A stretch of DNA of 63,891 nucleotides, counting the filler, from Collodictyon triciliatum (lineage: Eukaryota): assembly GCA_043381765.1 (NCBI GenBank). It is 4 parts of 4 records of this genome, joined end to end, with 100 filler letters (N's around TTAATTAATTAA, not from the genome) between each part and the next. Parts side by side here need not be neighbours in the genome. Positions count along the whole stretch, not along the records: positions 42,048 to 57,449 come from JBHJMP010001048.1; 3 more parts are not named here. One strand, written 5' to 3'. How positions within the stretch are numbered: the stretch's first letter is position 1; each line of letters starts with the position of its first letter. The notes under the pieces are model-generated. The model made no database searches, had not been told where the DNA came from, and saw only the letters and a program-made list of their open reading frames with translations. A program made the position numbers and the translations under genes. Below, piece after piece: positions 1,635 through 56,590 of this stretch.

Positions 1635-2126
1635 GAGAGAGGTTGACCCTGGCTTTCTAAAGTCCGTCTCATTTTCGCTCGTGGTATAACATCGCGTCCT
1701 CCCAGCCCCACCTCGTCCTTTTATATTTCTCGGGTTTTAAATAAGGAAGCACCCTTTCAACCCTTCACGAAAACACCAAGAGTGCCAACGAGGATGCCTC
1801 GCCGCCTAGGCTTTTCCAAATCAAAACGGGGGAGTGTACTTATTTCCTCAACCTTGCACAAGCTTGAGTGGATATCATCTTACATTTGAGTGAACGTGTA
1901 AGAGAGTTAAGGAAAGCGTCAATCCAGGGTTTTCAGAGGCTTCCATCGATCGATTATTTTTTCCTGGGAATTTTTTTATTATTATTTATCACCTTGAGTT
2001 ACCCAACTTTTTCTCCTCCCCCCTTCCTGTCTTCCTCAGGCGCCCCCCTGCCGAATAGATAATGCCTACTTTCCTCACAACACACAACGTCCAACAGAAA
2101 CACAGACAAAGAAAGCCTGCAGAACC

Positions 2127-5100
2127 ATGTCGGAAGGAGTCATCCGCATCAAGCCGCACCACTACATCCATGTGCTGAACAACAACACCAACGTGACCGA
2201 CGTGCTTGTGGGGCCCAACACGTACACGCGCAAGGACGAGGAAAAGGCATGTGAACCTTCCCTTCCCTTCCCTTCCCTCCCACTCCGTGTTATTGCAGTA
2301 CCAACCCTATCCCTACCTCCCGTCGCGGTGCACAAACCCTCGCCTTGTCTCGTCCCAACCGCAGCTGTCACAAACAAGACAAATCCCCCTCTGTTTTTCC
2401 TATTCCCCTCCTATATCCTCACCTCTTATTATTCCTTCTTTCTTCTTCTTCTTGGACGTGTGGCGCAGATCGTGCTTGGGCCTGAGGCGATGGTCAGCGT
2501 GCCGCCGCGCCACTACGTGCGGATCAGCAACCCGGTGGTGGTCGACTCCGAGGGGCAGCCGCAGCGGGATGCGTTTGGGCAGGTGCTTCTGCGGTTCGGC
2601 GACGAGGAGTACCGTTTCTCGCAGGATCCGTTCCCGCTGTACCCTGGGGAGAAGCTGCTGGGGAGCATCACGGCGCTGGCGGTGATTGGCGAGAACCAGG
2701 CGCTGCGCCTACGCGCGGTGCGGGACTACGAGGAGACGGAGAGCGTGCACCGCACAGCCGGAGACGAGTGGCTGTTTGTGGGGCCCGGGACGTACCAGCC
2801 GCACGTGGCGGTGACGATTGTGGAGAAGCTGTCTGCGACGATCCTCAAGCCCAACCAGGCGCTGCGGCTGCGGGCACGGTTCGACACGCAGGACCACAAG
2901 GGCCAGCAGCGGCGGACGGGCGAGGAGTGGCTGGTGCGGCAGGCTGGAGCGTATCTGCCCGGGGTGCACGAGGAGGTGGTGGGCGTGGTGAGCGCGCAGG
3001 TGCTGACCGACAAGCGCGCGCTGCATCTGCGTGCGCTGCGCTCCTTCACCGATGTCTACGGCGTGGCCCGCAAGGCCGGGCAGGAGTGGCTGATCACGCA
3101 CGCGCAGACCGAGACGCATCTGCCCGACGTGCACGAGGAGGTGGTGGGCGAGGTGCGCGTCACGTCGCTGTCCAACCGCCAGTACTGCGTGGTGCTGGAC
3201 CCCGTGGGCGCAGACGGCGTGCGGCGACTGGGCCAGCGCGAGCTGCGCGTGGGCGAGGCTTCCTTCTTCCTGCAGCCGGGCGAGCGCCTTGAGCGCGGCA
3301 TCCAGAACGTCGACGTGCTGGGCGAGGGCGAGGCGCTGCTGCTGCGTGCGCGCGAGGGCTTCACAGACACCGCCACCGACGGCGCAAAGCCCCACGCGCG
3401 CCAGCCCGGCGACCGCTGGATGGTCTACGGGCCCGCCGACTACGTGCCGCCCGTCCAGGTCGACATTGTGGAGCGCCGCACAGGCATCTCGCTCGATTCC
3501 AACGAAGGCATCTACGTCCGCGACATCCGCACCGGCCGCGTCCGTGCCGTCGTCGGCGAGAGCCACATGCTGCTGGCCAACGAGGAGCTGTGGCGCAAGG
3601 AACTGCGTCCCGACCTCGAGCTGCTGCTCCAGCACGGCACCATCGCCGTCGAGACCGCCTCCTCCCTGCCCCTCCAGCCCCGCGACAAGACCCGCGTCGT
3701 CTCCTACCGCGCCCCACACAACTCCGTCGTCCAGATCTACGACTACAAGGCAAAGTGCGCCCGCGTCGTCTTTGGGCCCGACCTTGTTATGCTCGGCCCC
3801 GACGAGCAGTTCACCTGCGTCTCCCTCTCGGGCTCCAAGCCCAAGCGTCCGGCCTTCCTCAAGACCATTGCCGTCTCCCTTGGGCCTGACTTTATGACCG
3901 ACATCATCACCGTCGAGACCGCCGACCACGCCCGGTAGGCTATGTCTCCCTCTCTCTTAATATAATATATAGACTTATTTGAATTTATAAGCAGCAGCTT
4001 ATGGCTCCCACCAACTCGCTACTTTTCGCTTTCCACCACACTGGTCGCACCAAATTTCACCTTGGCTCCCACCAACTCACTACTTTTCGCATTGCGGACT
4101 GACCACACCAAATTTTAATTTCGCCTACCCTAACCCACTCTCGCATTCTGCGCTGGCTGCACCAAACTCCACATCTGCCTGCTCACGAACCTCCTCACAC
4201 AGGCTTCAGCTGCAGCTCTCGTACTCGTGGTACTTCCGCATCAACAAGCAGGCGGACCGGTCCACCCTGGAAGCATCTGCCGCAAAGATCTTCAACGTCC
4301 CGGACTTTGTCGGAGATGCATGCAAGACAATGGCCTCGCGCATCCGCGCCGCAGTGGCCGGGCGACCGTTCGATGAGTTCCACAAGTACTCGTCGGATAT
4401 CATCCGCGTGGCCGTCTTTGGGCGGACGGCGGTGGAGAGCGGGCGCCCCGAGTTCTTCAACGCATCCAACAACCTGGTGATCTCGTCCATCGATATCCAG
4501 AGCGTGGAGCCGGTCGACCAGCGCACGCGCGACTCGCTGCAAAAGTCTGTGCAGCTGGCCATCGAAATCACGACGCAGTCGCAGGAGGCGTCTGCGCGCC
4601 ACGAGGCCGAGCGCCGCGAGCAGGAGGCCAAGGCCCGTCTCGAGCGCCAGCGCATCCAGGACGAGGCCGACGTCGAGGCCCAGCGCAAGGAGCTGCTCGA
4701 GCTGCAGGCCCAGACCGCAAAGGTTGAGGCCATCGGTGTTGCCGCTGCCGAGGCCCACGCCACCGCAGAGGCCTCCCGCATCGAGGGCGAGGCTGCCGTC
4801 AAGCTGGCCAAGCTCAAGGCCGAGGCCCTCCAGATTGAGTCTGCTGCCGAACTCAAGCATCTCAAGAACTCAAACTCGGCCCAGGTCGACCACCGCAAGC
4901 GCCTCATCGAGCTCGAGACCTTCCGCTCCGAGCAGCTTGCCTCCATCGAGGCCGAGAAGTTTGCCTCCATCGTCAACGCCATCGGCCCAAAGACCATCGA
5001 GTCCATCGCAAGAGCCGGCCCCGAAATGCAGGCCAAGCTCCTCTCGGGCCTCGGCCTCCAGGGCTACCTCGTCACTGACGGCACCAACCCCATCAATCTC

Positions 5101-5145
5101 TTCCAGACCGCTGCCGGCATGATTCACCCGGGCGGCTCCGCCTAA
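2127..5145 (+). CDS. MVP: Major vault protein, ~842 aa, 3 exons (2127-2246, 2469-3934, 4203-5145)
   Basis: N-terminus IRIKPHHYIHVLNNNTNVT; vault repeats (GDEWLFVGPGTYQP, GEEWLVRQAGAYLPGVHEEV); shoulder region ([36 protein letters not shown]); cap helix (DQRTRDSLQKSVQLAIEITTQSQEA); C-terminal AGPEMQAKLLSGLGLQGYLVTDGTNPINLF. Confidence 0.97.
4003..4170 (+). repeat. Imperfect ~60-nt tandem duplication in MVP intron 2
   Basis: GGCTCCCACCAACTC(G/A)CTACTTTTCGC occurs at ~4003 and ~4063; CACCAAA motif recurs three times. Confidence 0.7.
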
Positions 5146-44250: not shown

Positions 44251-45216
44251 CATATTGGCCCTTGGTATGTGNNNNNNNNNNNNNNNNNNNNNNNNNNNNN
44301 NNNNNNNNNNNNNNNNNNNNNNNNNNNNNNNNNNNNNNNNNNNNNNNNNNNNNNNNNNNNNNNNNNNNNNNNNNNNNNNNNNNNNNNNNNNNNNNNNNNN
44401 NNNNNNNNNNNNNNNNNNNNNNNNNNNNNNNNNNNNNNNNNNNNNNNNNNNNNNNNNNNNNNNNNNNNNNNNNNNNNNNNNNNNNNNNNNNNNNNNNNNN
44501 NNNNNNNNNNNNNNNNNNNNNNNNNNNNNNNNNNNNNNNNNNNNNNNNNNNNNNNNNNNNNNNNNNNNNNNNNNNNNNNNNNNNNNNNNNNNNNNNNNNN
44601 NNNNNNNNNNNNNNNNNNNNNNNNNNNNNNNNNNNNNNNNNNNNNNNNNNNNNNNNNNNNNNNNNNNNNNNNNNNNNNNNNNNNNNNNNNNNNNNNNNNN
44701 NNNNNNNNNNNNNNNNNNNNNNNNNNNNNNNNNNNNNNNNNNNNNNNNNNNNNNNNNNNNNNNNNNNNAACTCATAATGCAGTATAGTCAAATTCACAAT
44801 ATCTTTGTATATTGAATGTACAACAGCACGGATGACGTACTGCGCAGATCATCACAGAAAAAACAGATAGACGAGACTTATGTAATAATGTTCTATGTGG
44901 CGCTTTGCAATTCCGCTTCCACATTTGCTGTGCTGATGAAACCTCTTCCAGAATAGGATAGATTGACAATCATGCGAGTTCATCCGTTTGCCTGCCAGAA
45001 GACACACGCCAGAACTCGGAGAAGGCAGCAGACAAACAACACTTCAAAGCCGCATTGCTGCGCCAACAGCAAAACAGCAGACCAAGCGAAAAGACACAGC
45101 AAACGACACTGGCAATCAACCTTCCCAGTGCAACGGAGTTACCGGCATATCAGACCAGGCTCGCATTAACTTGCACACACATAGGCAGCTCAAGACCAAT
45201 ATTCCAGAGTATTCAC

Positions 45217-46677
45217 ATGGATGCAATTCGCAGCGCAAAGGAACAGGATCCACAATGCCTGGGCGAGGACTCAGAAAACGACAGTCAACCGGTTGAGTAC
45301 AAAGTGACTGCACTATCGGCTCTACTCCAAGCTTTTGTTCTTCTTTTCAGGATGGTGGCCAAGCTCTTTCCCGTACTTCTGTTCAACACAGTGGTAATGT
45401 GTGGCATATACCTTCCGGCACTTTACCTTGGGGACGACAGGGTGGATCGCTTCGAAGATCAGCTCTATGACTATACGATCGCAGCTCTGATGGTCTTTAC
45501 GTGCTGGATTTCTGTATCTCTGACAGCTATCCACATCTTCAGTTTCGAGTTTGGCAAGAGAGCTGTTCTCTTTGCTTTTGTTCCTGCCTTTACAAAGAAT
45601 TGCATTTTGTACCTTACTCCCCAATTGAAGACCATTCCTTACATCTGGAATATAGGGAGTGTGTTAGATCTTCCTCTGTTTGCTCTAGGTATGTATCTAG
45701 TCTACAAATCAGAGGCTCCAAAGACCATGGATGACAAGCAAAGTATGCATTATGCATTGACAAAGGATGGTTCTCCTCTTGCATTGTTCAAGGGCGTTTT
45801 CGGGTTTTACCTATTCGTTGGGTTCATATTTTATAATATCCTATTTTTGTTTTTAGACGTTTCTTTCTCTAAACAGTTGATTTTTCGCTTCGTCGTATTC
45901 CCCTTATGTTTTACAATATCTAAATTGTTTCAAAAGCGTGTTGTTTTTGGCCTGTCGATCGGGCCTATGAATCGAAGGTTGCTCGTGTATAAGATGTGTA
46001 ACCATCTAATTCAATTCATCGGACGAGTTCTTTTATCAAATTTACTGACAAACAGTTCTTCCATGAGTGTTTTCATCTTGATTAACGCAGTGGCAGTTTT
46101 CCTTGAGATTTTTGCGATAATATCCTTTTCGTATCGCACACGCCTATTATACCGGGCCAATTTAATTTGGGATGCTTTCCAGGTTGGTATGCTCAGTCAA
46201 AAAAATGAAGAAAACGAGGCCGAAACTTCTTTGGGGGGTATAGATATATCTGACACCGACTCACTTTACCAAGGATTAAATGTTGAAGATGAATCTCCAA
46301 TAAATTCAGAACACCAGATAGAGGAGCAACACTTACGAGATGCAACAGATTTTCGTTCGAAATACATCTATGATGACATGAGTTCTGAGATACACTCAAT
46401 TGTTGTAGCTTCGCTTCTTATGTATTTAATTCACCCAATCCGCTCCAATTCCTCTGGCATTAAGACAATATCTTCACTAGAGAAATGCGCATACCAGATA
46501 TTAGTGCAGGTGATTTTTGAAGTTGTTGGGGACTTGGCTGCGTTGGCCTACGAAATATATTACAAACGCATTTACCCTCAAAACTTTGGGGAGTGGAAAC
46601 CAATTTACCAGCCCGTGATGTTCTTATGGTCACTATATTGCATCTTTCAAATGCATCTAAGTGTTATTGCATATTAG
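45217..46677 (+). CDS. Intronless multipass membrane protein, function unknown (~486 aa)
   Basis: Long uninterrupted ORF with roughly 10 or more hydrophobic segments and an acidic loop; first ATG at 45217. Confidence 0.75.
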   Translation: MDAIRSAKEQDPQCLGEDSENDSQPVEYKVTALSALLQAFVLLFRMVAKLFPVLLFNTVVMCGIYLPALYLGDDRVDRFEDQLYDYTIAALMVFTCWISVSLTAIHIFSFEFGKRAVLFAFVPAFTKNCILYLTPQLKTIPYIWNIGSVLDLPLFALGMYLVYKSEAPKTMDDKQSMHYALTKDGSPLALFKGVFGFYLFVGFIFYNILFLFLDVSFSKQLIFRFVVFPLCFTISKLFQKRVVFGLSIGPMNRRLLVYKMCNHLIQFIGRVLLSNLLTNSSSMSVFILINAVAVFLEIFAIISFSYRTRLLYRANLIWDAFQVGMLSQKNEENEAETSLGGIDISDTDSLYQGLNVEDESPINSEHQIEEQHLRDATDFRSKYIYDDMSSEIHSIVVASLLMYLIHPIRSNSSGIKTISSLEKCAYQILVQVIFEVVGDLAALAYEIYYKRIYPQNFGEWKPIYQPVMFLWSLYCIFQMHLSVIAY

Positions 46678-47064
46678 CCTCCAATCTAAAGCAAATAAAA
46701 AAATAAAAACCATAAGTTGTGTTTTGAATTGTATTTCCTATTAGTTTTAAGAGGAAAGCATATTGTCGCTTCACCTAGACACTGAAGGTATTTGATTAGA
46801 AGCTCAGAATCCTTAAAAAAACAAAAAAAACAAAAAAACCGCGCCAAATTCATGTTCTCGGTATTTGATACAAGATTTGTGCAAACTCTATCATATATCT
46901 AGCAGTAAAAAGTTGGTTATTTTACAGGTTGCAGACACTTTGAACATTTCTCATAAAAATATTTTCTTATTTGAGATTATTCTGGTCAAATTGTTTTGTG
47001 GGGTTTTTGTTTTTTAATGGGTTAAGGTAATCATATTGTCCTGAGGTGGGTGAAAGGTAGCACC

Positions 47065-50000
47065 TTATGATAGAAGCTTTTGTATCTCCGCAAGGTGTGT
47101 GGGTAGCAGGTCCAATCTTCCATAGTCAGCAGCTATTTGTTCCATGTCATGTCGAAGGGATTCTAGTCCAGCATCAGCAACTTCCTTGTAGGCAGTCTTT
47201 GACGCAGTAACGATTTCGTTATGGCTAGAAAGGCAATTCATACAAAAAAAATTGGTTGAGGTATGTCCATTTAAGGTCATTTAATCGGTAATAAGCATAT
47301 TGCATGAGTCTGATTCCAATTTGTTTGAAAAGAGAAAGACTTTACCGAACGACCAGCGCAAAGGGATGGGTATGACCAACAAGCCTCTCAAATATGATGC
47401 GAGCACTACCCAGGAGCTTTGACGCATCTTCAACCTGACCACGTCCCTTGAGCAATAAAGCCAAGCTGTTTAGGGTGGATGCTGATTGAAATAAGCGTTG
47501 GAGCTGAAGGGTTTGGTCTGATGACTGTGGGCAGATCGAGGAGAAGCTCTGTACATGTTTCCAGAGCAAAGAGAGGGAAACCCATGAAAAATAGCACATG
47601 GTTTTTTAATGTCATTATGGTCAATTCGTAATGAATAGATTCAATATTGAAAGACCTACTTGAATAAGATGTAATTCGGCTGCTTTCAAAAAACCAGAGG
47701 AATAATAAAGATGGCAGACATTGTGATGAAGAGTGGAAATATCCTAAAGATAACTCACAATCAAAGTATGTGCCATGTGCTGAGCTTAAATAAGTTATGG
47801 ACAAGTACTTAAATGATTTGAAGGCAAAGAAGACAAAACGCAAGAATACTCTGTTAAGGTTATGTTGGGTTATATGAGAAAAATACAATATGTCCGTGCT
47901 GGAGGCTTGTTTTGGATTGCTCGAGTGCGCTCCTTAGGAGGTATCCAGCTGTCTTTTGGGATGAGCTTTGAATGATTGTTTCTTTAATTTAAAAATGCAA
48001 TGAATCGTATTAATTAACAACAACAAAGGGGAAAAAAACTATGCAATGTGGACATTTCCCCTCCTAAAATTGAACCATACAACGGATATCCTGGTTTCAA
48101 GCAACAAAGAGCATAACCATTCATAGCCGCGATTTGTTGGTGTAAGTATGACGGGGCTCCTAAAAAAAAAAGATAATAATGCGAGGGCGTATCTCTAAAT
48201 TCGAGTTATATGGATGATCTGCAAGGCGATACCTACTTGGCTAATTTATAGCCTCGAGTAGAAATTACCTTTGAATGTGAGTTTGGATAGAATTTCTTTG
48301 TAGACATCAAAGGCATCACTGATTTTCTCAGATAAGAATAAAGATGTTGCATACTCTAGTTGAATTTTTATCAATTGCTGAGAATATTCGTGCTGCAACT
48401 AATTAATAGCAAGGATTATTACAAGGATATTGGGTAAACGTAAATACATTAAAATGACTATGAGCTCCAAAGTTTTTTTTTTTTGTAGTTCATGCACCTG
48501 ATTTTTCATATTCGCTGATTGGCTCAGTTGGTTGTTGAGTTCTCCAAGTTGATCAATAGCTCTTTTTAGGATTTTAGATGCGGGAATGTAATAGCCGATA
48601 TCATTGAAGAAACTCCCTGAGTAATACTCCAGATTGCTAATATAGATTAAATTTTAACTATTTTCTTTCATATTATCGATGATGTTTTGTCACACTTTCA
48701 CTTTAAGAATGTTTAATAGTACATCTGCTCGTGAACGTCCCTACTACCGGATACGGAAAGAACATTTGAATACAATTCGACGGCTTCTACAAACCTATGT
48801 ATTCATTTATTCAAATAAAATAAGCACCCGCCACTTATCCGTGTGATTACTAGTGATACCGATATACTCAAGTATACCCGCGTGATTGGGACATCCATGA
48901 AGCCATCAAATGGAAACGAAGCTCATCATCACCTTCAAACACAGTTTGAAGAACTCCAGAGGTTGTGTGGGCTGTCATGAGTGGTATTTTGTATTTTAGT
49001 GTTCTTTTTGTCAGGAATAAACGTTAAAGGGTGTCCTTGTGATACAGTATGGCCTAATTTCAATACATACGAGTAAAACCAAAAAAAAGAAAAAAAGAAA
49101 AAAAGAAAGAAAAAGAAGGGGTTAAAAAAAGTGCACCGTACACAATTCAGCACTCTGTTCGATTGTCGGGATTGGGTCTATATCATGGTAAGGAAACAAA
49201 GAAGGATAAAAGCATATTGAATATGAGAAATATTAATGAATTTTTAGATGTCATTTGTGTAATTTAGAGGTGTATGTATGTGTATGTAAGTGTGACTATT
49301 TTGGCCTCTAGATACTAATTGGCACTTTTTTAAGAACTGGAACCTGAAAGAATAAGTGACACAGAGCGTTCGATGACAGGAGGCACCCATATTTTGCTTT
49401 GTTGTAGTGTTGCCTGATTCTTTTCTAAAAGTTTGAAGTTGAAAAATATGTAATACATGAAAGATAGAAAAATGGAATAATCTTATCGCAAAATATATAG
49501 GTAAAATAGGATAGGAGCATTAACATAGAGACCAGCATTTGTACTTACTTAATTGCACGAAAACTTTCGCAAGGGTGACCTTAGGGCCATAGTGACCTTT
49601 CCAGTATTTTCCGTCTTTAGCCGCATCTTCAAAGTATATGTACCTTTGGGTTGCGATTTATATAATTTGATATGCTGACATCAAATGATCAAAAAAATTG
49701 GTCATAGCAGGCGCTAGGAATATTAAAATGTATAATACCTGAGCCCTCTCCTGTATTCTTTAAATGTGTGTTCCACCACTTGCATTTCAGAACCAAGGTC
49801 AATCGATGTGTTAAAGATACTATTCGCCTCCAGACGGACATTATTGCCATCCCTAAGCTCAACCTACGTGAATATGAGTCAAACCAAATCCTTTGATAAA
49901 TAAGGTGATTTTCTTATATCTCTTTCTTTACACATTACCCTGACTACCACAGTTGAGATTTTTTTTCCTTTATTCGATTCAACCATAGTTGAGATTTAAT

Positions 50001-53000
50001 CACACGAGAAAGTCTGATTGAATTCAAAATTACATTCATAGCATACGACCCACCGCCTCCGCAGCTTCCTATTATAACAGTTTCTGATACGTAGATCTAA
50101 GTCGAATATTGGATTGTGTGTGTAAAACGAAATGGGTATATTATAATAGGATTTTATGGTAAACTTCGAGAACAATACACACTTGTGGGGATTTATCAAG
50201 CTCCTCTTCAGAGTAACCCATAGAAATCAAGTCAAGAAGCTGGCTACGTCTACACCAGCCATAAGACGTAACAAAGGCCTTAAAATTTTTAATAAAAAAG
50301 CGTCAATATAATCGACGAAATATTTGTTTATATTAGGGATATTCTCTCTAATCATGATTACTTTCTCTGCCGTGGAGAATCCCTCGCAAACGACCCATCC
50401 GTCACCACCATTAGCAATAATCTAGAAGAGCATTAATGTGGATATAACAAAATAATACATATGAGAACTGCGAGAGTACATATAGTTCATTAACAAGTAT
50501 GCCCATGAAATAGATATTCCTGTAAAATACATTCCATCCGTCTAAGGACCCAGATTCGGCAGAGCCATTGGCCAAAAGGTTTTCATAGACATCTAGTAAG
50601 TGGGTAGTGTAATATGAACTGCAAAGATAACTAAGGCACATAATATACCACATCTTGGAATACATATCTTATATGTAAATAATAGCAATATATGAGATTG
50701 GAAAAGCTACCCTCGCTTTGATGTAACAAAGAGGGATATCTCTGGTGCGATTTTTCGTAGGTTTAGCAATCGAAGAAAAATATCATATTTGTGTTTTCAA
50801 ACCTTATTTTACACAGATCAGGCGAATAAGTAATGTTTACGATACATAATAAACAAATAGGGCTACACGAAGAGGATAATGAAATTTACCAGTAATAACC
50901 CTCTTGCCCCAAGCAAAACTCTACCTGACTGCTCTGATTGACTACTCAATAAATCGCGAATGTCGAAAGGAATTCCATCGTAGCTGTTCACATGCGATGA
51001 TATTGCATCGGCGCATATAGACATCAATGATGGAACTCTGTCAGTATTACTTTGTTCCTTGCTTAGACCATTGTTTTTGGCTGTGGAAATTTGAATGTCA
51101 TGGACATATTTATCGACCTCATCGCCAATATAAGTGGGATTGGTATCTATCGAATTTGGGTGGGGTTCATGTATTAGCCAACGGTCTATTTATTATAGAT
51201 CACAAGGATATATGTATTCGAAAACTTGTTTCGATTCGAAAGTTTTTTTTTTTAAAAAAAAAAAACTTGATTGAATGATGCCTCATGCTTTGAGAAAGCC
51301 ATTACCCCACTCGGTTTGATTCGAGGAAAATACAGCAACGCCGCATAGAATGGGTGCCGCAGATGTCTTGGAATAGGTGATACTCTCAGCATTTAGACGT
51401 ACATAAATTGATTTAGAAGATGGCGATGTAATCACAGGAATATCGAGAGCGTGAAGATGACCAACTGATTGATGAATATCAATCGCGCTCAGCTATTAAT
51501 GATTCAGGTAGAATATCGTGAGCTTTCATAGATTGAAGTGTTTTTTTTTATAATAAAATTGAACGTGTGGGCACATATAGTCGCGATTGAAATGGTGATA
51601 AGATGTGAAACCTTACCCCTTCAATTCTTTTGTGCTGTATTAATGGATAAAAAATTCGTATACCAGCTTCTAGAGTGCGGCATTCAGCAAACCTGTGGTT
51701 GGGTATGGTTATCAATTTTAATTTTATAAGGAATCCTCTGCTCTAATTCTATCCCAGAAATAATTGCTATTCTATTTGGAAAAAAAAAAGGACGACTGGG
51801 CAGATTATACGTCTATCTGGTTTGAAAAAATAAATAAATTAGATTCACTTCAAAACAACCACGACAGGCTCAGCTTGATCGACATCGAGGGTAAAATCTA
51901 ATGGTCCAAACCCTGCGTGTTCATCTCCACAGCTATTGAATGATTGGTTTGAATTATTTTCCAAGGTTACTTTATGCATCTTAATTTCTGTTTTGTTTTT
52001 GTTTTTGTTTTTGTTTTTGTTTTTGTTTTTGTTTTTTGCTTGCTCCAATCTTTCAGTTCTCTCTTTCCAGTTGAACTGAAGGTTGAACGAGGAAGAAATC
52101 GGTATTGATGGAAAATATGAGTTTCACAGAAGTAAGGAAAGACTTTACCTCGATTGACCAGAAGTGTACAAAATACCATCATGGGTTCCTTGAATCATTT
52201 GAGAAAGAAATGGGTATGCGTACGGCGCTGTCGAAGCTTGGAAGAAATCTATTCCCAACATTTAATTTTATCCAATCAACCACGATGGGATAATAAAAGC
52301 AAGTATAAATCACTTTCATTCATTTACATAGTGGTGCGCAACATAAATAAAATCCTTTCATAATTCAAACTTTCAGGTGTGCGTTTGTAAATAACTCCGT
52401 CATATCCGTAATGATCTGCTGCTGCCCCAAATGTCCAAGCGCAGATAACGTCATTTCCTAGAAGAAAATGGATGTTGGTTATCCCTGTATTTGTTGGATT
52501 TGACAGAAGAACCCGGGTGGTGCTCAATAAAATAATAAGGATCTGAGATCTTACTTTGCACAAAGATACGGCCTTCCCCAGAGTAGTCGTCTTCGATATC
52601 CACGGCCACCTGAATACCCCACCAACCCGCATTTGGGAAGAGAGAGGCATCAAACTCAAAGGTAGCTCTACCTGGGTTAGAATCCCCTGCAACCTCAACC
52701 TCAAACGCTTCCATCTTCCGAACACTATTGTCATAGATAAGGGGATTAAGCTGAGCTCTAAAAATGTGGAAGGAGAAAAAGGCACTTTTGTAAAGGAAGA
52801 GAGGAAGGGGAGAAGAACTAGAGTGCTTTTTTTGTTTTTGTTTTTTAATGAGAACGAAATATTTGAAGCCGATCAGGCAGAAGCAAACATTTGGCGTCGG
52901 TCATTGGTTTGGCAAGAGAACTTCAAGTGCACAAGGCGGTTCCCGGGCGTAGCGAGGCTTTCGAGTGTGCTGCTCTGCAACAAAACACGAACCTATGCGA

Positions 53001-53115
53001 ACCGTCTCGGTTCAAAAAGGAGAGCGATCTTGAAAAAAGTACAAGGACACCGTACCTTTTCGGCTCGGCCGTGGGTCACAACAGTTGGCTCCAGGTGGAG
53101 GATGGTGGTCTTCAT
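47065..53115 (-). CDS. Multi-exon protein: Ig-like domain + malectin domain + BC-box-like motif + FBA (F-box-associated lectin) domain + TPR-like repeats
   Basis: Malectin-like: VICAWTFGAAADHYGYDGVIYK..IQGTHDGILY..VVVVLKFAECRTLEAGIRIF..IDIHQSVGHLHALDIPV..PILCGVAV. BC-box-like: VPSLMSICADAI..GIPFDIRDLL. FBA: NLLANGSAE..GWNIIANGGDGW..FVTSYGWCRRSQLLDL..EELD..HTFKEYRRGLRYIYFEDAAKDGKYWKGHYGPKVT. TPR-like: TLNSLALLLKGRGQVEDASKLL..IFERLVGHTHP. Start may lie further upstream; some internal exons not resolved. Confidence 0.75.
51990..52038 (+). repeat. Intronic (TTTTTG)n microsatellite
   Basis: About 8 hexamers. Confidence 0.9.
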
Positions 53116-53999
53116 GGGGGCAGTGGGGTTCAAGTCTGGGTATTTGCACGTGGGTGTCGGTGAGTCACGCAGCTGAGTTCTATGCGGCGAGGTATGTGCA
53201 CTTTGGTGTTTCTATGCGGCACTTGTTTGGCTCCACCACTGATGACAGCAGCGGGTGTGACGATTAAGGCGACGTGCGTTTGTGGCAGCCGGAAGGCAAC
53301 AACATATGTAAGTGACTTTGAATCGAATAAAGGAAAAAAAAAAACTCATGTAAATGTCAACGCAACACAACACAACAACCACCAGTGTCCGTCGGTATCA
53401 GAAGTTGTACCCATTCATAGAAGTCGACACATGGCTTTAACTACATAGGTATATAATTAATAAATATGTACAAAATTTATTTTGCTGTNNNNNNNNNNNN
53501 NNNNNNNNNNNNNNNNNNNNNNNNNNNNNNNNNNNNNNNNNNNNNNNNNNNNNNNNNNNNNNNNNNNNNNNNNNNNNNNNNNNNNNNNNNNNNNNNNNNN
53601 NNNNNNNNNNNNNNNNNNNNNNNNNNNNNNNNNNNNNNNNNNNNNNNNNNNNNNNNNNNNNNNNNNNNNNNNNNNNNNNNNNNNNNNNNNNNNNNNNNNN
53701 NNNNNNNNNNNNNNNNNNNNNNNNNNNNNNNNNNNNNNNNNNNNNNNNNNNNNNNNNNNNNNNNNNNNNNNNNNNNNNNNNNNNNNNNNNNNNNNNNNNN
53801 NNNNNNNNNNNNNNNNNNNNNNNNNNNNNNNNNNNNNNNNNNNNNNNNNNNNNNNNNNNNNNNNNNNNNNNNNNNNNNNNNNNNNNNNNNNNNNNNNNNN
53901 NNNNNNNNNNNNNNNNNNNNNNNNNNNNNNNNNNNNNNNNNNNNNNCGCAATCATCCCAAATTCAAGGGATAAATAAAAATATCAAATGTTAGAAAGAG

Positions 54000-56590
54000 A
54001 TACATCACTTATGCGGTCCCAGTATTTTTCCTCCCGTTCTTGATGCGAACGAGCGCCTGTTTGGTCGAATCCTCATCATATTCGCAGCACAACAAAAATT
54101 GAATTTTAAGCCGCTCTAATGTTGTAAACTTGTCAAATATGTTTCATAAAAAAGGAGGAAAAGTAAAGCAGGTATGTCTCATCAAGGTGGCAACACGGAG
54201 TTAATCACACACGGATTACAACTGCCTCAGTTATGACGCTCCTCTGATCTGTTTTATGAATTCCTTGAACCTCTTTGCTTCGAAACTGCAGATAAAATCA
54301 ATCAAATTAAAAAAATTAATATACAATTGGGACAAAAAGGAGGAATGTTGTTAGTAGCAGACATACGTAATGCCTTCATACAAATGGCATTTTCAGTTAA
54401 TATGATAAAATATAGGGAAATGGTATTTTTTGCGATAAAGCAGTTCTACATACCAGGTTTGTGAGCTCTATCGTGTTCTCGACGTTCAACACAATGAGGC
54501 GCTTCTGGATTTACATCACTGATGTGCAAAGGAGTAAAAACCGTTCATGAACAATAAAATGAGCGTGCTAACTTACCTCTACAAAAGAATATGATAAATA
54601 TCACCTCATATGTGTGGCTAACAGCTTTGTTATATATTAGCTTTTTTGTTCATTCAAGCTTAATTATCAAGGCTCTGGGTTTCACGGAACAAGCGTTGAT
54701 GATATATTATTCGATTGATGAAGGCACAAATCATTTTTCATGAGGTATGCAAACGCCTAATGAAAGCAGCCGCACTTGTATGACAAATGATTACTTTAAT
54801 GTATAAATACAGGAAAATACATGATTCTGATGCTTTTTTCCTCTTGGACGTGTCATTATCATTTTCTTTTCCCTCACTTTCAGAATCGCTGCCATATTTG
54901 TTATCACCTTAATCATATAGTCTCATATTCTTCGCTCGGCTCTCCTGCTGCAGTTTTTCTTCTCGCTTCTGAAGCGCAAGTCGATCTAGTCCGAGGATAT
55001 ATTGATGTCTTTGCAGCCCAGCGGATACTTTAGTTCACTTCCTACCTTGACTTGCGAGCAACCCTCCAACCTTCGCTGTGTGTTGTGTGATTGTAATTTG
55101 AGGGGAGCCAAGTAAGTATTGTAGATGGGCAAGAAAGAAAGAAAAATAAATTAACAATTATTCAAGCACAGATATTTATGAACCTTCTGTGTTTCAAAGT
55201 CCAACGTTTCAGGTCTTCCGACAGAACCACCGCGTCGATTCTATCGTCTCCGCTACTTTTTTTTCATCGCATTGATGGTGTTTTTGATTTTGGAGATAAT
55301 CACTCAGAATACATCTCTGTGAATTTTGGTGATTGTCTTTGCTCTATGAAAATAAGACGACAGATATGTTGGACGAAAGAAAAAGATTTGTAGTGCTTCA
55401 AAGAAGTCATAGTTTTTTTCAATGAGCACGGTATTGGATGCGTTACGGCTTTATCCCAATACTCTAAAAGAATTTTCTATAGGCAACTATTGCAATAGAA
55501 GCATAAATATAATATATCGTATGAAATAGAGGAAGATTGGAAGAGAAACCTTTTTTTTAGATTCTCAGGCTCGTTTGTATTCTTCCCCAGAGCTATGCTT
55601 TCAGCAACCAAAGGGCGATCTTTTGCCTCTGGGCAAGCTGCTTTCGACAGAATAGATGCAACCCCCTGGCCAAGAGATTCCAACATCCGCAGTCACTGTA
55701 TTTAATCCTTAAAAGACGTTTAATTAAAAAAAACCAAGTAAAAAGGCTGGATAACAGTTAAAAATCGAGACAATTAATTACTCAAGACACGGCCTTGTGA
55801 AAAAGGTTTTGTTTGCCGCAAAGAGCCATGCTCACAACCAGAGCACTTCCCACCACCACAGAGTCAAGNNNNNNNNNNNNNNNNNNNNNNNNNNNNNNNN
55901 NNNNNNNNNNNNNNNNNNNNNNNNNNNNNNNNNNNNNNNNNNNNNNNNNNNNNNNNNNNNNNNNNNNNNNNNNNNNNNNNNNNNNNNNNNNNNNNNNNNN
56001 NNNNNNNNNNNNNNNNNNNNNNNNNNNNNNNNNNNNNNNNNNNNNNNNNNNNNNNNNNNNNNNNNNNNNNNNNNNNNNNNNNNNNNNNNNNNNNNNNNNN
56101 NNNNNNNNNNNNNNNNNNNNNNNNNNNNNNNNNNNNNNNNNNNNNNNNNNNNNNNNNNNNNNNNNNNNNNNNNNNNNNNNNNNNNNNNNNNNNNNNNNNN
56201 NNNNNNNNNNNNNNNNNNNNNNNNNNNNNNNNNNNNNNNNNNNNNNNNNNNNNNNNNNNNNNNNNNNNNNNNNNNNNNNNNNNNNNNNNNNNNNNNNNNN
56301 NNNNNNNNNNNNNNNNNNNNNNNNNNNNNNNNNNNNNNNNNNNNNNNNNNNNNNAGCTCATATTGGAGAGGCACAAGATAATGACACGGCACACTTGCAG
56401 ACCATATCCCAAAAACAGTCACCAAATAAATAAAATAAAAAACAAGGTTATTTTCAATCATATACAAATCAGAATAAAAGTTCGTCAGAAAGGCAGCAAC
56501 AAAGAGGCACATATCAACCCACCTCAAAGTAAATCGAGATGTGGACGTGGACAGACTTTGTCGGGTAACTTGGAAAGGCATCCATGATTT
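54000..56590 (-). CDS. Fragments of one or two small multi-exon hypothetical genes, interrupted by a gap
   Basis: Spliceable exons such as DDRIDAVVLSEDLKRWTLKHRSEGWRLLASQDRLALQKREEKLQQESRAKNMRLYD* and RLKIQFLLCCEYDEDSTKQALVRIKNGRKILGPHK*. No family recognised. Confidence 0.35.

What the first reader, a model, noticed from the sequence alone, without database searches (positions are those of the whole stretch)
47065..53115. Candidate glycan-sensing E3 ligase receptor: malectin + BC-box + FBA lectin + TPR in one protein
Seen: short exons largely absent from the ORF track splice in frame into an Ig-like segment (~53115-52560), a malectin-like domain (~52455-51310), VPSLMSICADAI..IPFDIRDLL (~51036-50947), an FBA domain (~50590-49550) and TPR-like repeats. 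No signal peptide is visible. Known: FBA domains of FBXO2/FBXO6 bind high-mannose N-glycans and are normally preceded by an F-box (SCF); malectin binds Glc2 N-glycans in the ER; (S/T/P)LxxxCxxxΦ is the Elongin BC box. Inference: a cytosolic dual-lectin receptor that links glycoproteins to an Elongin BC-Cul2/5 ligase instead of SCF. I do not recognise this architecture from any described protein.
Basis: partly seen in the sequence, partly recalled or inferred. Interest (0 to 1): 0.8.

Follow-up and report, generated by a model that had tools for sequence, protein, structure and literature searches.

The report
Protist lectin protein: malectin-like, FBA, TPR
A freshwater protist gene really does encode one soluble protein that joins two sugar-binding-type domains (malectin-like and FBXO2-type FBA) to TPR repeats without a recognisable F-box, but its proposed link to an Elongin-type ubiquitin ligase rests only on a short, partly conserved motif.

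Summary
A 27-exon minus-strand gene (CDS 53115..47065, model 942 aa) is supported by spliced cDNA contigs. It aligns end to end (364 of 925 aligned positions identical, 39%) with a single 945-aa transcript-derived protein of Diphylleia rotans.

Order of parts:
- a weakly Ig/FnIII-like N-terminus;
- a malectin-like domain, which is below Pfam's cut-off but backed by an own profile and a fold match;
- a conserved helix-loop-helix motif;
- a strong FBXO2-type FBA domain with the sugar-binding Tyr-Trp pair;
- C-terminal TPR repeats.

There is no signal peptide or membrane segment. Pfam finds no F-box.

The motif fits the published BC-box consensus in both species. However, its Cys is Ala and the Cul2-box Pro is Ser in D. 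rotans. No SOCS, VHL or F-box profile matches it. Cul2/Cul5-Elongin ligases are held to be animal-specific (PMC2785787). Binding could not be tested.

Best reading: a cytosolic glycan-binding adaptor restricted, as far as searched, to diphylleids. How it couples to downstream machinery is unresolved; the BC-box ligase reading stands at about 0.2. It is a new variant of the FBA lectin-receptor kind and of moderate interest.

The parts
46994..53137 (-). Transcript as far as it is seen in the window. The poly(A) site is at 46994. At about 53137 an acceptor joins to an upstream 5'UTR exon that was not located.
   Evidence: T-run loose ends at 46994 in X1 and X2, and a loose end at 53137 in X1. Read in frame, that loose end carries a stop before the ATG.
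47065..53115 (-). Coding sequence: 27 exons, 942 aa. ATG at 53115-53113, stop at 47067-47065.
   Evidence: Colinear with D. rotans P0006.
52555..53115 (-). N-terminal beta-rich region (aa 1-116, 3 exons). Possibly an Ig/FnIII-like sandwich.
   Evidence: No Pfam hit. In the AF2 model of the orthologue it has pLDDT 34-79, with FnIII-type matches of Z 6-7.4 only, which is within the noise range.
51306..52457 (-). Malectin-like domain (aa 117-294, 5 exons).
   Evidence: An own HMM of 28 bacterial PF11721 domains scores 16.1-16.3 bits, against 11.4 for the best of 2000 shuffles. The alignment covers the LKFAE, RIF and DI..VGH motifs. The orthologue scores 20.3 bits on Pfam Malectin, below the 23-bit cut-off. 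Fold match to Xenopus malectin 2K46: Z 11.5.
50890..51146 (-). Linker exon (aa 295-380) that carries the conserved motif.
   Evidence: Acceptor from X2 record 10. HMMER over 1.84 billion representatives finds the D. rotans orthologue at E 1e-10 and 43% identity.
50947..51036 (-). Motif VPSLMSICADAISSHVNSYDGIPFDIRDLL (aa 332-361): BC-box-like helix plus a Cul2-box-like stretch.
   Evidence: Regex and shuffles. Conservation. Predicted as helix-loop-helix at low confidence.
49549..50592 (-). FBA (FBXO2-type sugar-binding) domain (aa 391-557, 6 exons). Includes YWK at ..GKYWKGHYG..
   Evidence: Pfam FBA on 3 exon pieces. The orthologue scores 1.2e-31. PDB FBXO2 at 4e-25, with the Y279/W280 positions aligned.
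47068..49424 (-). C-terminal helical region with TPR repeats (aa 558-942, 11 exons).
   Evidence: TPR_10 at 30.6 bits in 47345-47605. P0006 has TPR_12 at 9.3e-11 and a TPR_MalT hit. All introns here are seen as cDNA joints except 48160-48268, which rests on a loose end.

Best explanation
The locus is one gene for a soluble, non-secreted protein of about 942 residues.

It combines an FBXO2-type FBA lectin domain with a second, malectin-like carbohydrate-binding-type domain. A conserved helix-loop-helix motif lies between the two domains, and a C-terminal TPR scaffold follows.

Most likely it acts in the cytosol as a sensor or adaptor for glycans that are normally lumenal. These would be retro-translocated glycoproteins or glycans exposed on ruptured endomembranes. 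The FBA domain, and perhaps the malectin-like domain, would hold the glycan. The inter-domain motif and/or the TPR repeats would recruit downstream machinery, either a ubiquitin ligase or another complex.

Shown here: the gene structure, the domain order, the absence of a signal peptide or membrane segment, FBA membership, and conservation in D. rotans.

Inferred: glycan binding, the cytosolic site of action, and any ligase link.
For: - Spliced cDNA joints and a poly(A) site.
- 942-aa model.
- End-to-end alignment with the single-transcript ORF P0006 of D. rotans, 364/925 identical.
- FBA: exon hits; 110 bits in P0006; FBXO2, FBXO44 and FBXO6 are the 8 of 8 PDB sequences at E<=0.01.
- The FBXO2 Tyr279/Trp280 pair, needed for substrate binding according to PMC12904710 (passage), aligns with YW in the window protein and FW in D. 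rotans.
- Malectin-like:
  - Own HMM 16 bits, above 2000 of 2000 shuffles.
  - Pfam 20.3 bits in P0001.
  - After the FBXO chains, 4 of the 5 remaining PDB hits at E<=10 are malectin.
  - In the fold search, the only 5 of 48,161 chains with Z>=8 are malectin or malectin-like domains.
- TPR_10 and TPR_12 hits.
- No hydrophobic N-terminus or membrane segment.
- Pfam gives only FBA and Malectin for P0001 at E up to 10.
Against: - Glycan binding was not tested. FBXO44 has the same fold but is reported not to bind sugars (PMC3210139, passage).
- The malectin hit is below Pfam's cut-off.
- The AF2 model of that region was built with an alignment of bacterial malectin domains, so the fold match is partly circular.
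- Three inferred introns were seen only unspliced in the contigs shown.
- 'Cytosolic' rests only on the absence of targeting signals.
- No partner of the motif or of the TPR repeats is known.
Confidence: 0.55

Rival explanations
1. First reader's reading. The motif is a functional BC box (VHL/SOCS-box type) that binds Elongin C. The protein would then be the glycan-recognising receptor of an Elongin BC-cullin ligase instead of an SCF ligase.
For: - S-L-x3-(C/A)-x3-I is kept in both species and fits the published consensus.
- The window copy also has PhiPxxPhixxxPhi 9 residues later, within the published 8-23.
- Strict BC plus Cul2 pattern appears in 0.08% of 20,000 shuffles.
- The motif sits 57-61 residues before the FBA start, roughly where FBXO2 has its F-box. 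PDB 2e31 aligns from its residue 126 to orthologue residue 394.
- Predicted helical, at low pLDDT.
- ESM Atlas rank 2 for the exon is a SOCS_box cluster at 0.82, which is a lead only.
Against: - No SOCS_box, VHL or related Pfam hit at E up to 10.
- No PDB sequence hit of that kind, with the exon alone or with the two-species profile.
- The Cys and the Cul2-box Pro are not conserved in D. rotans.
- The loose BC pattern occurs in 63% of shuffles.
- The Atlas lead was not reproduced with the orthologue.
- The pattern was chosen after seeing the sequence.
Confidence: 0.2
2. The motif region is a strongly diverged F-box, and the protein is still an SCF (Skp1-Cul1) receptor like FBXO2.
For: - All characterised FBA lectins named in the papers read are F-box proteins.
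- NCCRP1/FBXO50 likewise fails the F-box pattern, yet its authors argue for a shortened F-box (PMC3210139, passages).
- The position before the FBA domain is similar.
- SCF is ancestral to eukaryotes (PMC2785787).
Against: - No F-box or F-box-like Pfam hit at E up to 10.
- The PDB FBXO2 alignments start only at the FBA domain.
- The stretch between motif and FBA is predicted partly as strands, not as the helical linker (low confidence).
- By my own reading, the motif lacks the LPxE start and the Trp of F-boxes. This is recalled consensus, not a tool test.
Confidence: 0.12
3. The protein is not a ligase receptor at all. It is a lectin-TPR scaffold, for example a cytosolic sensor of foreign or prey polysaccharide, or a chaperone or autophagy adaptor. 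The motif would be only a structural inter-domain element or a docking site for its own TPR repeats.
For: - There is no recognisable cullin-adaptor box by any profile.
- The C-terminus gives TPR_12 and TPR_MalT-type hits, which are typical protein-protein scaffolds.
- D. rotans has a 644-aa isoform without the TPR part.
Against: The motif is the best conserved stretch of the linker exon: 36 invariant columns, most of them within VPSL..DLL..GARGL. That argues for a specific function. FBA domains are otherwise known from ligase receptors.
Confidence: 0.13

Closest known systems
FBXO2/Fbs1 family (FBXO2, FBXO6, FBXO17, FBXO27, FBXO44): F-box plus FBA lectin receptors of SCF ligases
   Same: The FBA domain is homologous. 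PDB FBXO2 chains score 4e-25 to 9.5e-23 over orthologue residues 394-556. The Tyr-Trp pair at FBXO2 279/280 is kept. The protein is soluble, and a conserved element precedes the FBA domain.
   Different: No F-box is detectable. About 330 extra N-terminal residues carry a malectin-like domain, and about 385 extra C-terminal residues carry TPR repeats. The host is a protist, not an animal.
NCCRP1 / FBXO50
   Same: An FBA protein that fails the F-box pattern (PMC3210139, passages).
   Different: NCCRP1 is short, has no second lectin-type domain and no TPR repeats. Its authors model a shortened F-box, whereas here the preceding motif follows a BC-box pattern.
Malectin (ER, Glc2-N-glycan binding; PDB 2K46, 2JWP, 6S7T)
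   Same: The fold and core motifs are shared. Fold search gives Z 11.5, rmsd 2.8, 138 residues aligned and 21% identity to 2K46. Weak sequence hits at E 0.14-0.9 cover the same stretch.
   Different: Below Pfam's family cut-off (20.3 against 23 bits). No signal peptide or membrane anchor, so presumably not in the ER lumen. Sugar-contact residues were not checked.
VHL-box / SOCS-box substrate receptors of Elongin BC-Cul2/Cul5 ligases
   Same: The BC-box consensus is met in both species. The Cul2-box consensus and spacing are met in the window copy.
   Different: No profile-level similarity. The Cys and Pro are not conserved. The box lies between two domains. The lineage is outside animals, where Cul2 and Cul5 are thought to have arisen (PMC2785787).

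Membership tests
FBA (Pfam PF04300, FBXO2-type sugar-binding domain) | Profile match over the whole domain, above the curated cut-off (32.4 bits) | tested here: met
   The orthologue P0006 scores 110.3 bits over profile positions 5-175 of 175. Three window exon pieces match colinear profile parts 49-84, 128-150 and 146-175 at 29.8, 15.3 and 21.9 bits. The spliced window protein itself could not be scanned.
FBA (functional lectin subgroup) | Aromatic pair equivalent to FBXO2 Tyr279/Trp280 | tested here: met
   The alignment to 2rj2_A places YW of FBXO2 on FW of D. rotans. The window protein has YW at the same column. The role of the pair is taken from a passage of PMC12904710. Binding itself was not tested.
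Malectin (Pfam PF11721) | Profile match above the curated cut-off (23 bits) | tested here: inconclusive
   P0001 scores 20.3 bits and P0006 19.7 bits, covering only profile positions 77-140 of 163. There are no exon-level hits. An own bacterial-malectin HMM gives 16 bits, above 2000 of 2000 shuffles.
Malectin (fold) | Malectin-type beta-sandwich | tested here: met
   All 5 of 48,161 chains with Z>=8 are malectin or malectin-like domains, with Z 11.5-14.8 over model residues 108-267. Caveat: the model's alignment consisted of bacterial malectin domains.
F-box (PF00646 / PF12937) | Profile match in the region before the FBA domain | tested here: not met
   No hit at E up to 10 for the motif exon or for P0001. 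HMMER's filters may hide very weak matches.
SOCS box / VHL box | Profile match (PF07525 or related) | tested here: not met
   No hit at E up to 10. No such PDB chain with the exon or the two-species profile.
SOCS box / VHL box | BC-box consensus (S,T,P)LXXX(C,S,A)XXXPhi | tested here: met
   SLMSICADAI in the window and SLAYLAAQAI in D. rotans. The consensus is from PMC3355856.
SOCS box / VHL box | Cullin box 8-23 residues downstream (Cul2: PhiPXXPhiXXXPhi; Cul5: LPPhiP) | tested here: inconclusive
   The window has IPFDIRDLL after 9 residues, which fits the Cul2 box. D. rotans has ISLDIKDLL, without the Pro. Neither has LPPhiP.
SOCS box / VHL box | Binding to Elongin C/B | not testable with these tools
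TPR | Profile match above the cut-off | tested here: met
   TPR_10 scores 30.6 bits against a 27.5 cut-off in window 47345-47605. TPR_12 scores 42.2 bits against a 30.1 cut-off in P0006 residues 774-830.

The most novel reading that the evidence does not exclude
An FBA glycan receptor in a CRuMs protist has a BC box in place of the F-box and docks on Elongin C. Glycoprotein surveillance in this lineage would then run through an Elongin-type cullin ligase. BC-box receptors, and a cullin that accepts them, would be older than animals, which contradicts the view that such ligases are animal-specific.
Probability: 0.2. Interest if true: 0.75.

Novelty: new variant of a known kind. Interest (0 to 1): 0.5.

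Why it matters
FBA lectin receptors are the known way in which cells detect N-glycans in the wrong compartment, as in ER-associated degradation and damaged lysosomes. So far they are described as small F-box proteins of animals. Here the same lectin domain sits in a deep-branching protist lineage, in a large protein with a second lectin-type domain and a TPR scaffold, and without a detectable F-box.

If the two domains read different glycan states (malectin: glucosylated; FBA: high-mannose), one protein could discriminate processing stages of a glycoprotein. If the motif binds Elongin C, adaptor swapping between Skp1-type and Elongin C-type ligases happened outside animals. Both ideas can be tested directly with recombinant domains.

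Tried and rejected
**Sequence searches that found nothing useful**
- Word-index searches with the motif exon and with the N-terminal exon, longer proteins only: no hit.
- The same tool with P0001 residues 1-390 found only P0001 itself.
- HMMER over 1,835,955,588 representatives with the motif exon: 5 proteins at E<=1e-3. One of the 5 (P0001) is a relative. P0002-P0005 are internally repetitive proteins hit in 4-6 stretches each, with unrelated Pfam content, and I dropped them as spurious.
- Metagenome scans: none with the exon. With P0006 there was one locus, L156, which is bacterial (topoisomerase and resolvase-like ORFs) with no open frame at the match, so I rejected it.
- Exon-level PDB phmmer: no hits for 3 exons. 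The two-species motif profile gave only two chance-level rows at E 1.3.
- ESM Atlas on orthologue residues 328-392: no usable hit.
- Earlier-findings look-ups near the place, by words and by sequence: nothing.
- Rfam over 46000-55800: no match.

**RNA and genome resources**
- No RNA holder is listed on record. X1 and X2 are labelled RNA only as a guess.
- No whole genome is held for the window.

**Alignments and folding**
- Alignments A2 and A3, made of window exon fragments against the orthologue, were smeared by MAFFT and were not used for folding.
- The spliced window protein could not be handed to Pfam, AF2 or the search tools, so the orthologue stood in for it.
I dropped that step and used the whole protein id instead.
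- Outside the malectin region the AF2 model is poor: FBA pLDDT is 22-63. It says nothing about the FBA domain, the motif packing or the N-terminus.

**Not run**
- Complex prediction was not run. No Elongin C, Elongin B or Skp1 sequence was available, and the window holds none among the 22 long ORFs scanned.

Full report
**Where and what.** Earlier notes of this scan describe the genome as a freshwater protist related to Diphylleia. The window is AT-rich, with short exons on the minus strand between 47065 and 53115.

A first Pfam scan of 40 raw open frames gave three results:
- FBA in three colinear pieces (profile positions 49-84, 128-150 and 146-175; E 6.4e-7, 0.017 and 1.6e-4);
- TPR_10 above its cut-off in 47345-47605;
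- no malectin, F-box or SOCS box hit.

**Transcript evidence.** One search for sequencing runs listed eight runs. X1 and X2 (one study) held 0.33 and 0.28 of the sampled words and are labelled RNA only as a guess.

Laying X1, X2 and two metagenome runs gave the following:
- 15 listed joints, all CT..AC on the + strand, which is GT..AG for a minus-strand gene. Ten more joints were not shown.
- T-run loose ends at 46994, marking a poly(A) site.
- Loose ends carrying what I recall to be the SMART template-switch oligo, which marks these runs as cDNA.

After shifts of at most 3 bases, 16 of 16 intervals are GT-AG.

Three more introns follow from loose ends that match the next exon: 48160-48268, 49644-49738 and 50593-50710. 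The last has 2 mismatches in 22 letters. Seven introns are inferred from GT-AG sites that keep the frame open.

Against the model, three contigs run unspliced across inferred introns:
- X2 record 10, across 50889;
- X2 record 9, across 50422-50530;
- X1 record 5, across 52249-52370.

These may be pre-mRNA, retained introns or DNA carry-over. I could not see the ten hidden joints.

The loose end at 53137 joins an upstream 5'UTR exon and carries an in-frame stop, so ATG 53115 is the start. The model has 27 exons and 942 residues. The acceptor of the intron that starts at 52370 has four frame-keeping options, giving 922-942 aa.

**An orthologue settles the single-protein question.** Word-index searches with two exons found nothing. 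HMMER with the 85-residue motif exon against 1.84 billion representatives gave five proteins at E<=1e-3.

Four of the five are repeat proteins hit in several stretches, and I dropped them as spurious. The fifth, P0001, scored E 1e-10 with 43% identity, and exon residues 4-84 matched its residues 297-378. It is a Diphylleia rotans EukProt protein of 644 aa.

Its cluster mate P0006 is a 945-aa ORF from another isoform of the same Trinity gene. My 942-aa model aligns with P0006 from first to last residue. 364 of 925 aligned positions are identical, and there are no gaps across residues 332-480, where four introns were inferred.

So the domain order is that of one protein, in two species.

A search of the 5.8-billion collection with P0001 residues 1-390 found only P0001 itself. 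Two metagenome scans found no relative. As far as these searches reach, the architecture is confined to diphylleids.

**Domains.** Pfam on P0006 gives:
- FBA, 1.2e-31, residues 390-555;
- TPR_12, 9.3e-11;
- TPR_MalT, 6e-4;
- Malectin, 19.7 bits, below the 23-bit cut-off.

P0001 gives only FBA and Malectin (20.3 bits), even at E up to 10.

*FBA.* Against PDB sequences, all 8 hits at E<=0.01 are FBXO2, FBXO44 or FBXO6 sugar-binding domains. In the alignment to FBXO2 chain 2rj2_A, the Tyr-Trp of ..VYWKG.. falls on FW of D. rotans. A chain offset of 112 makes that pair Tyr279/Trp280. The window protein has YW at the same column. A passage of PMC12904710 states that mutating Y279 and W280 impairs substrate binding by FBXO2.

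*Malectin-like.* Spliced sequence could not be given to the library tools, so I tested the malectin claim another way:
- I fetched 28 bacterial domains that match Pfam PF11721 at E<=1e-8 or better.
- I built an HMM from them and scored the spliced model in a script.
- Three of the four model variants scored 16.1-16.3 bits, and the fourth 12.7 bits. The best of 2000 shuffles scored 11.4 bits.
- The alignment covers the GT.D..LY, LKFAE, RIF and DI..VGH stretches.

P0001 alone against PDB lists four malectin entries among its five sub-threshold hits, at E 0.14-0.92.

An AF2 model of P0001 was built with the bacterial malectin alignment A4. Its mean pLDDT is 51.8 overall but 72-91 for most ten-residue blocks of residues 100-260. 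In a search of 48,161 chains, only five reach Z>=8:
- three GH2 C-terminal malectin-type domains;
- FERONIA;
- Xenopus malectin 2K46 (Z 11.5, rmsd 2.8, 138 residues aligned).

All five are malectin or malectin-like. This is partly circular because of the alignment used. I call the domain malectin-like.

*N-terminus.* Residues 1-116 give only FnIII-type matches at Z 6-7.4, within the noise range stated by the tool.

*Targeting.* Neither species has a hydrophobic N-terminus or a membrane-like segment. The highest 19-residue hydropathy window is 1.1.

**The motif.**
- Window: VPSLMSICADAISSHVNSYDGIPFDIRDLL (aa 332-361).
- D. rotans: VPSLAYLAAQAICSYVNTLDGISLDIKDLL.

Passages of PMC3355856 give the two consensus patterns:
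- BC box: (S,T,P)LXXX(C,S,A)XXXPhi.
- Cul2 box: PhiPXXPhiXXXPhi, placed 8-23 residues after the BC box.

Both species meet the BC consensus. Only the window copy meets the Cul2 consensus, and the strict Cys is Ala in D. rotans.

Pattern frequencies in 20,000 shuffles of the model protein:

| Pattern | Share of shuffles |
|---|---|
| Strict BC box | 6.7% |
| Loose BC box | 63% |
| Strict BC plus Cul2 | 0.08% |
| Loose BC plus Cul2 | 1.5% |

These patterns were chosen after seeing the sequence.

Other tests of the motif:
- The motif lies 57-61 residues before the FBA start, about where FBXO2 has its F-box.
- No Pfam family of the F-box, SOCS or VHL kind matches.
- No PDB chain of that kind matches.
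- The ESM Atlas gave a SOCS_box cluster at rank 2 (0.82, under the tool's trust level) for the window exon, but nothing for the orthologue.
- AF2 predicts helix-loop-helix, with pLDDT 42-59 only.
- PMC2785787 (passages) argues that Cul2/Elongin and Cul5/Elongin ligases are animal-specific and that SCF is ancestral.
- PMC3210139 (passages) shows that an FBA protein, NCCRP1, can fail the F-box pattern and still be modelled with a shortened F-box.

Binding to Elongin C or Skp1 could not be modelled, because neither sequence was available.

**Reading.** The architecture is real and conserved. Glycan recognition by the FBA domain is likely, and by the malectin-like domain possible.

The protein is most plausibly a cytosolic glycan-sensing adaptor (0.55). 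How it couples onward is open:
- BC-box docking, about 0.2;
- a diverged F-box, about 0.12;
- no ligase link at all, about 0.13.

Searches of the paper library found no paper describing such an architecture (search listings and abstract starts only; terms: malectin, F-box associated, FBXO2, FBA domain, SOCS box, malectin domain, TPR).

**Surroundings.**
- A major vault protein gene lies at about 1998-5142 (+).
- A BBS1 fragment lies near 22000 (-).
- A 571-aa intron-free ORF at 44962-46674 (+) has no Pfam family. It converges on this gene's 3' end.

Noticed in passing
window 53310-53346: A roughly 35-base element (AAGTGACTTTGAATCGAATAAAGG followed by an A-run) has far higher depth than its flanks in all four runs: 241, 268, 36 and 4.9. 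Many short contigs match it, with different flanks on both sides. It looks like one of the ultra-short LINE-tail retro-insertions noted earlier for this genome.
   Followed up: partly
window 1998-5142 (+): A GC-rich (0.57-0.64) major vault protein gene. Vault repeat domains score E 3.8e-65 and the MVP shoulder domain 1.3e-34, in two long open frames.
   Followed up: partly
window 21996-22349 (-): An open frame with a Bardet-Biedl syndrome 1 GAE domain (E 2.4e-11), so a BBS1 gene lies here.
   Followed up: no
window 44962-46674 (+): A 571-aa intron-free open frame, rich in hydrophobic stretches and with no Pfam family. It converges on the lectin gene: its end lies about 320 bases from that gene's poly(A) site.
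   Followed up: partly
P0001 versus P0006 (D. rotans); window 50771-51146, 50392-50560, 52219-52400: D. rotans has a 644-aa isoform that ends after the FBA domain and lacks the TPR part. In the window, three cDNA contigs are unspliced. One of them, read through, would stop shortly after the motif. Short isoforms may exist.
   Followed up: no
window 47030, 47168, 47459, 48048, 48094 and others: Runs X1 and X2 differ from the window at the same single bases in the 3' exons. The two runs are labelled as different organisms of one study, so the transcripts come from a close but not identical strain or allele.
   Followed up: no
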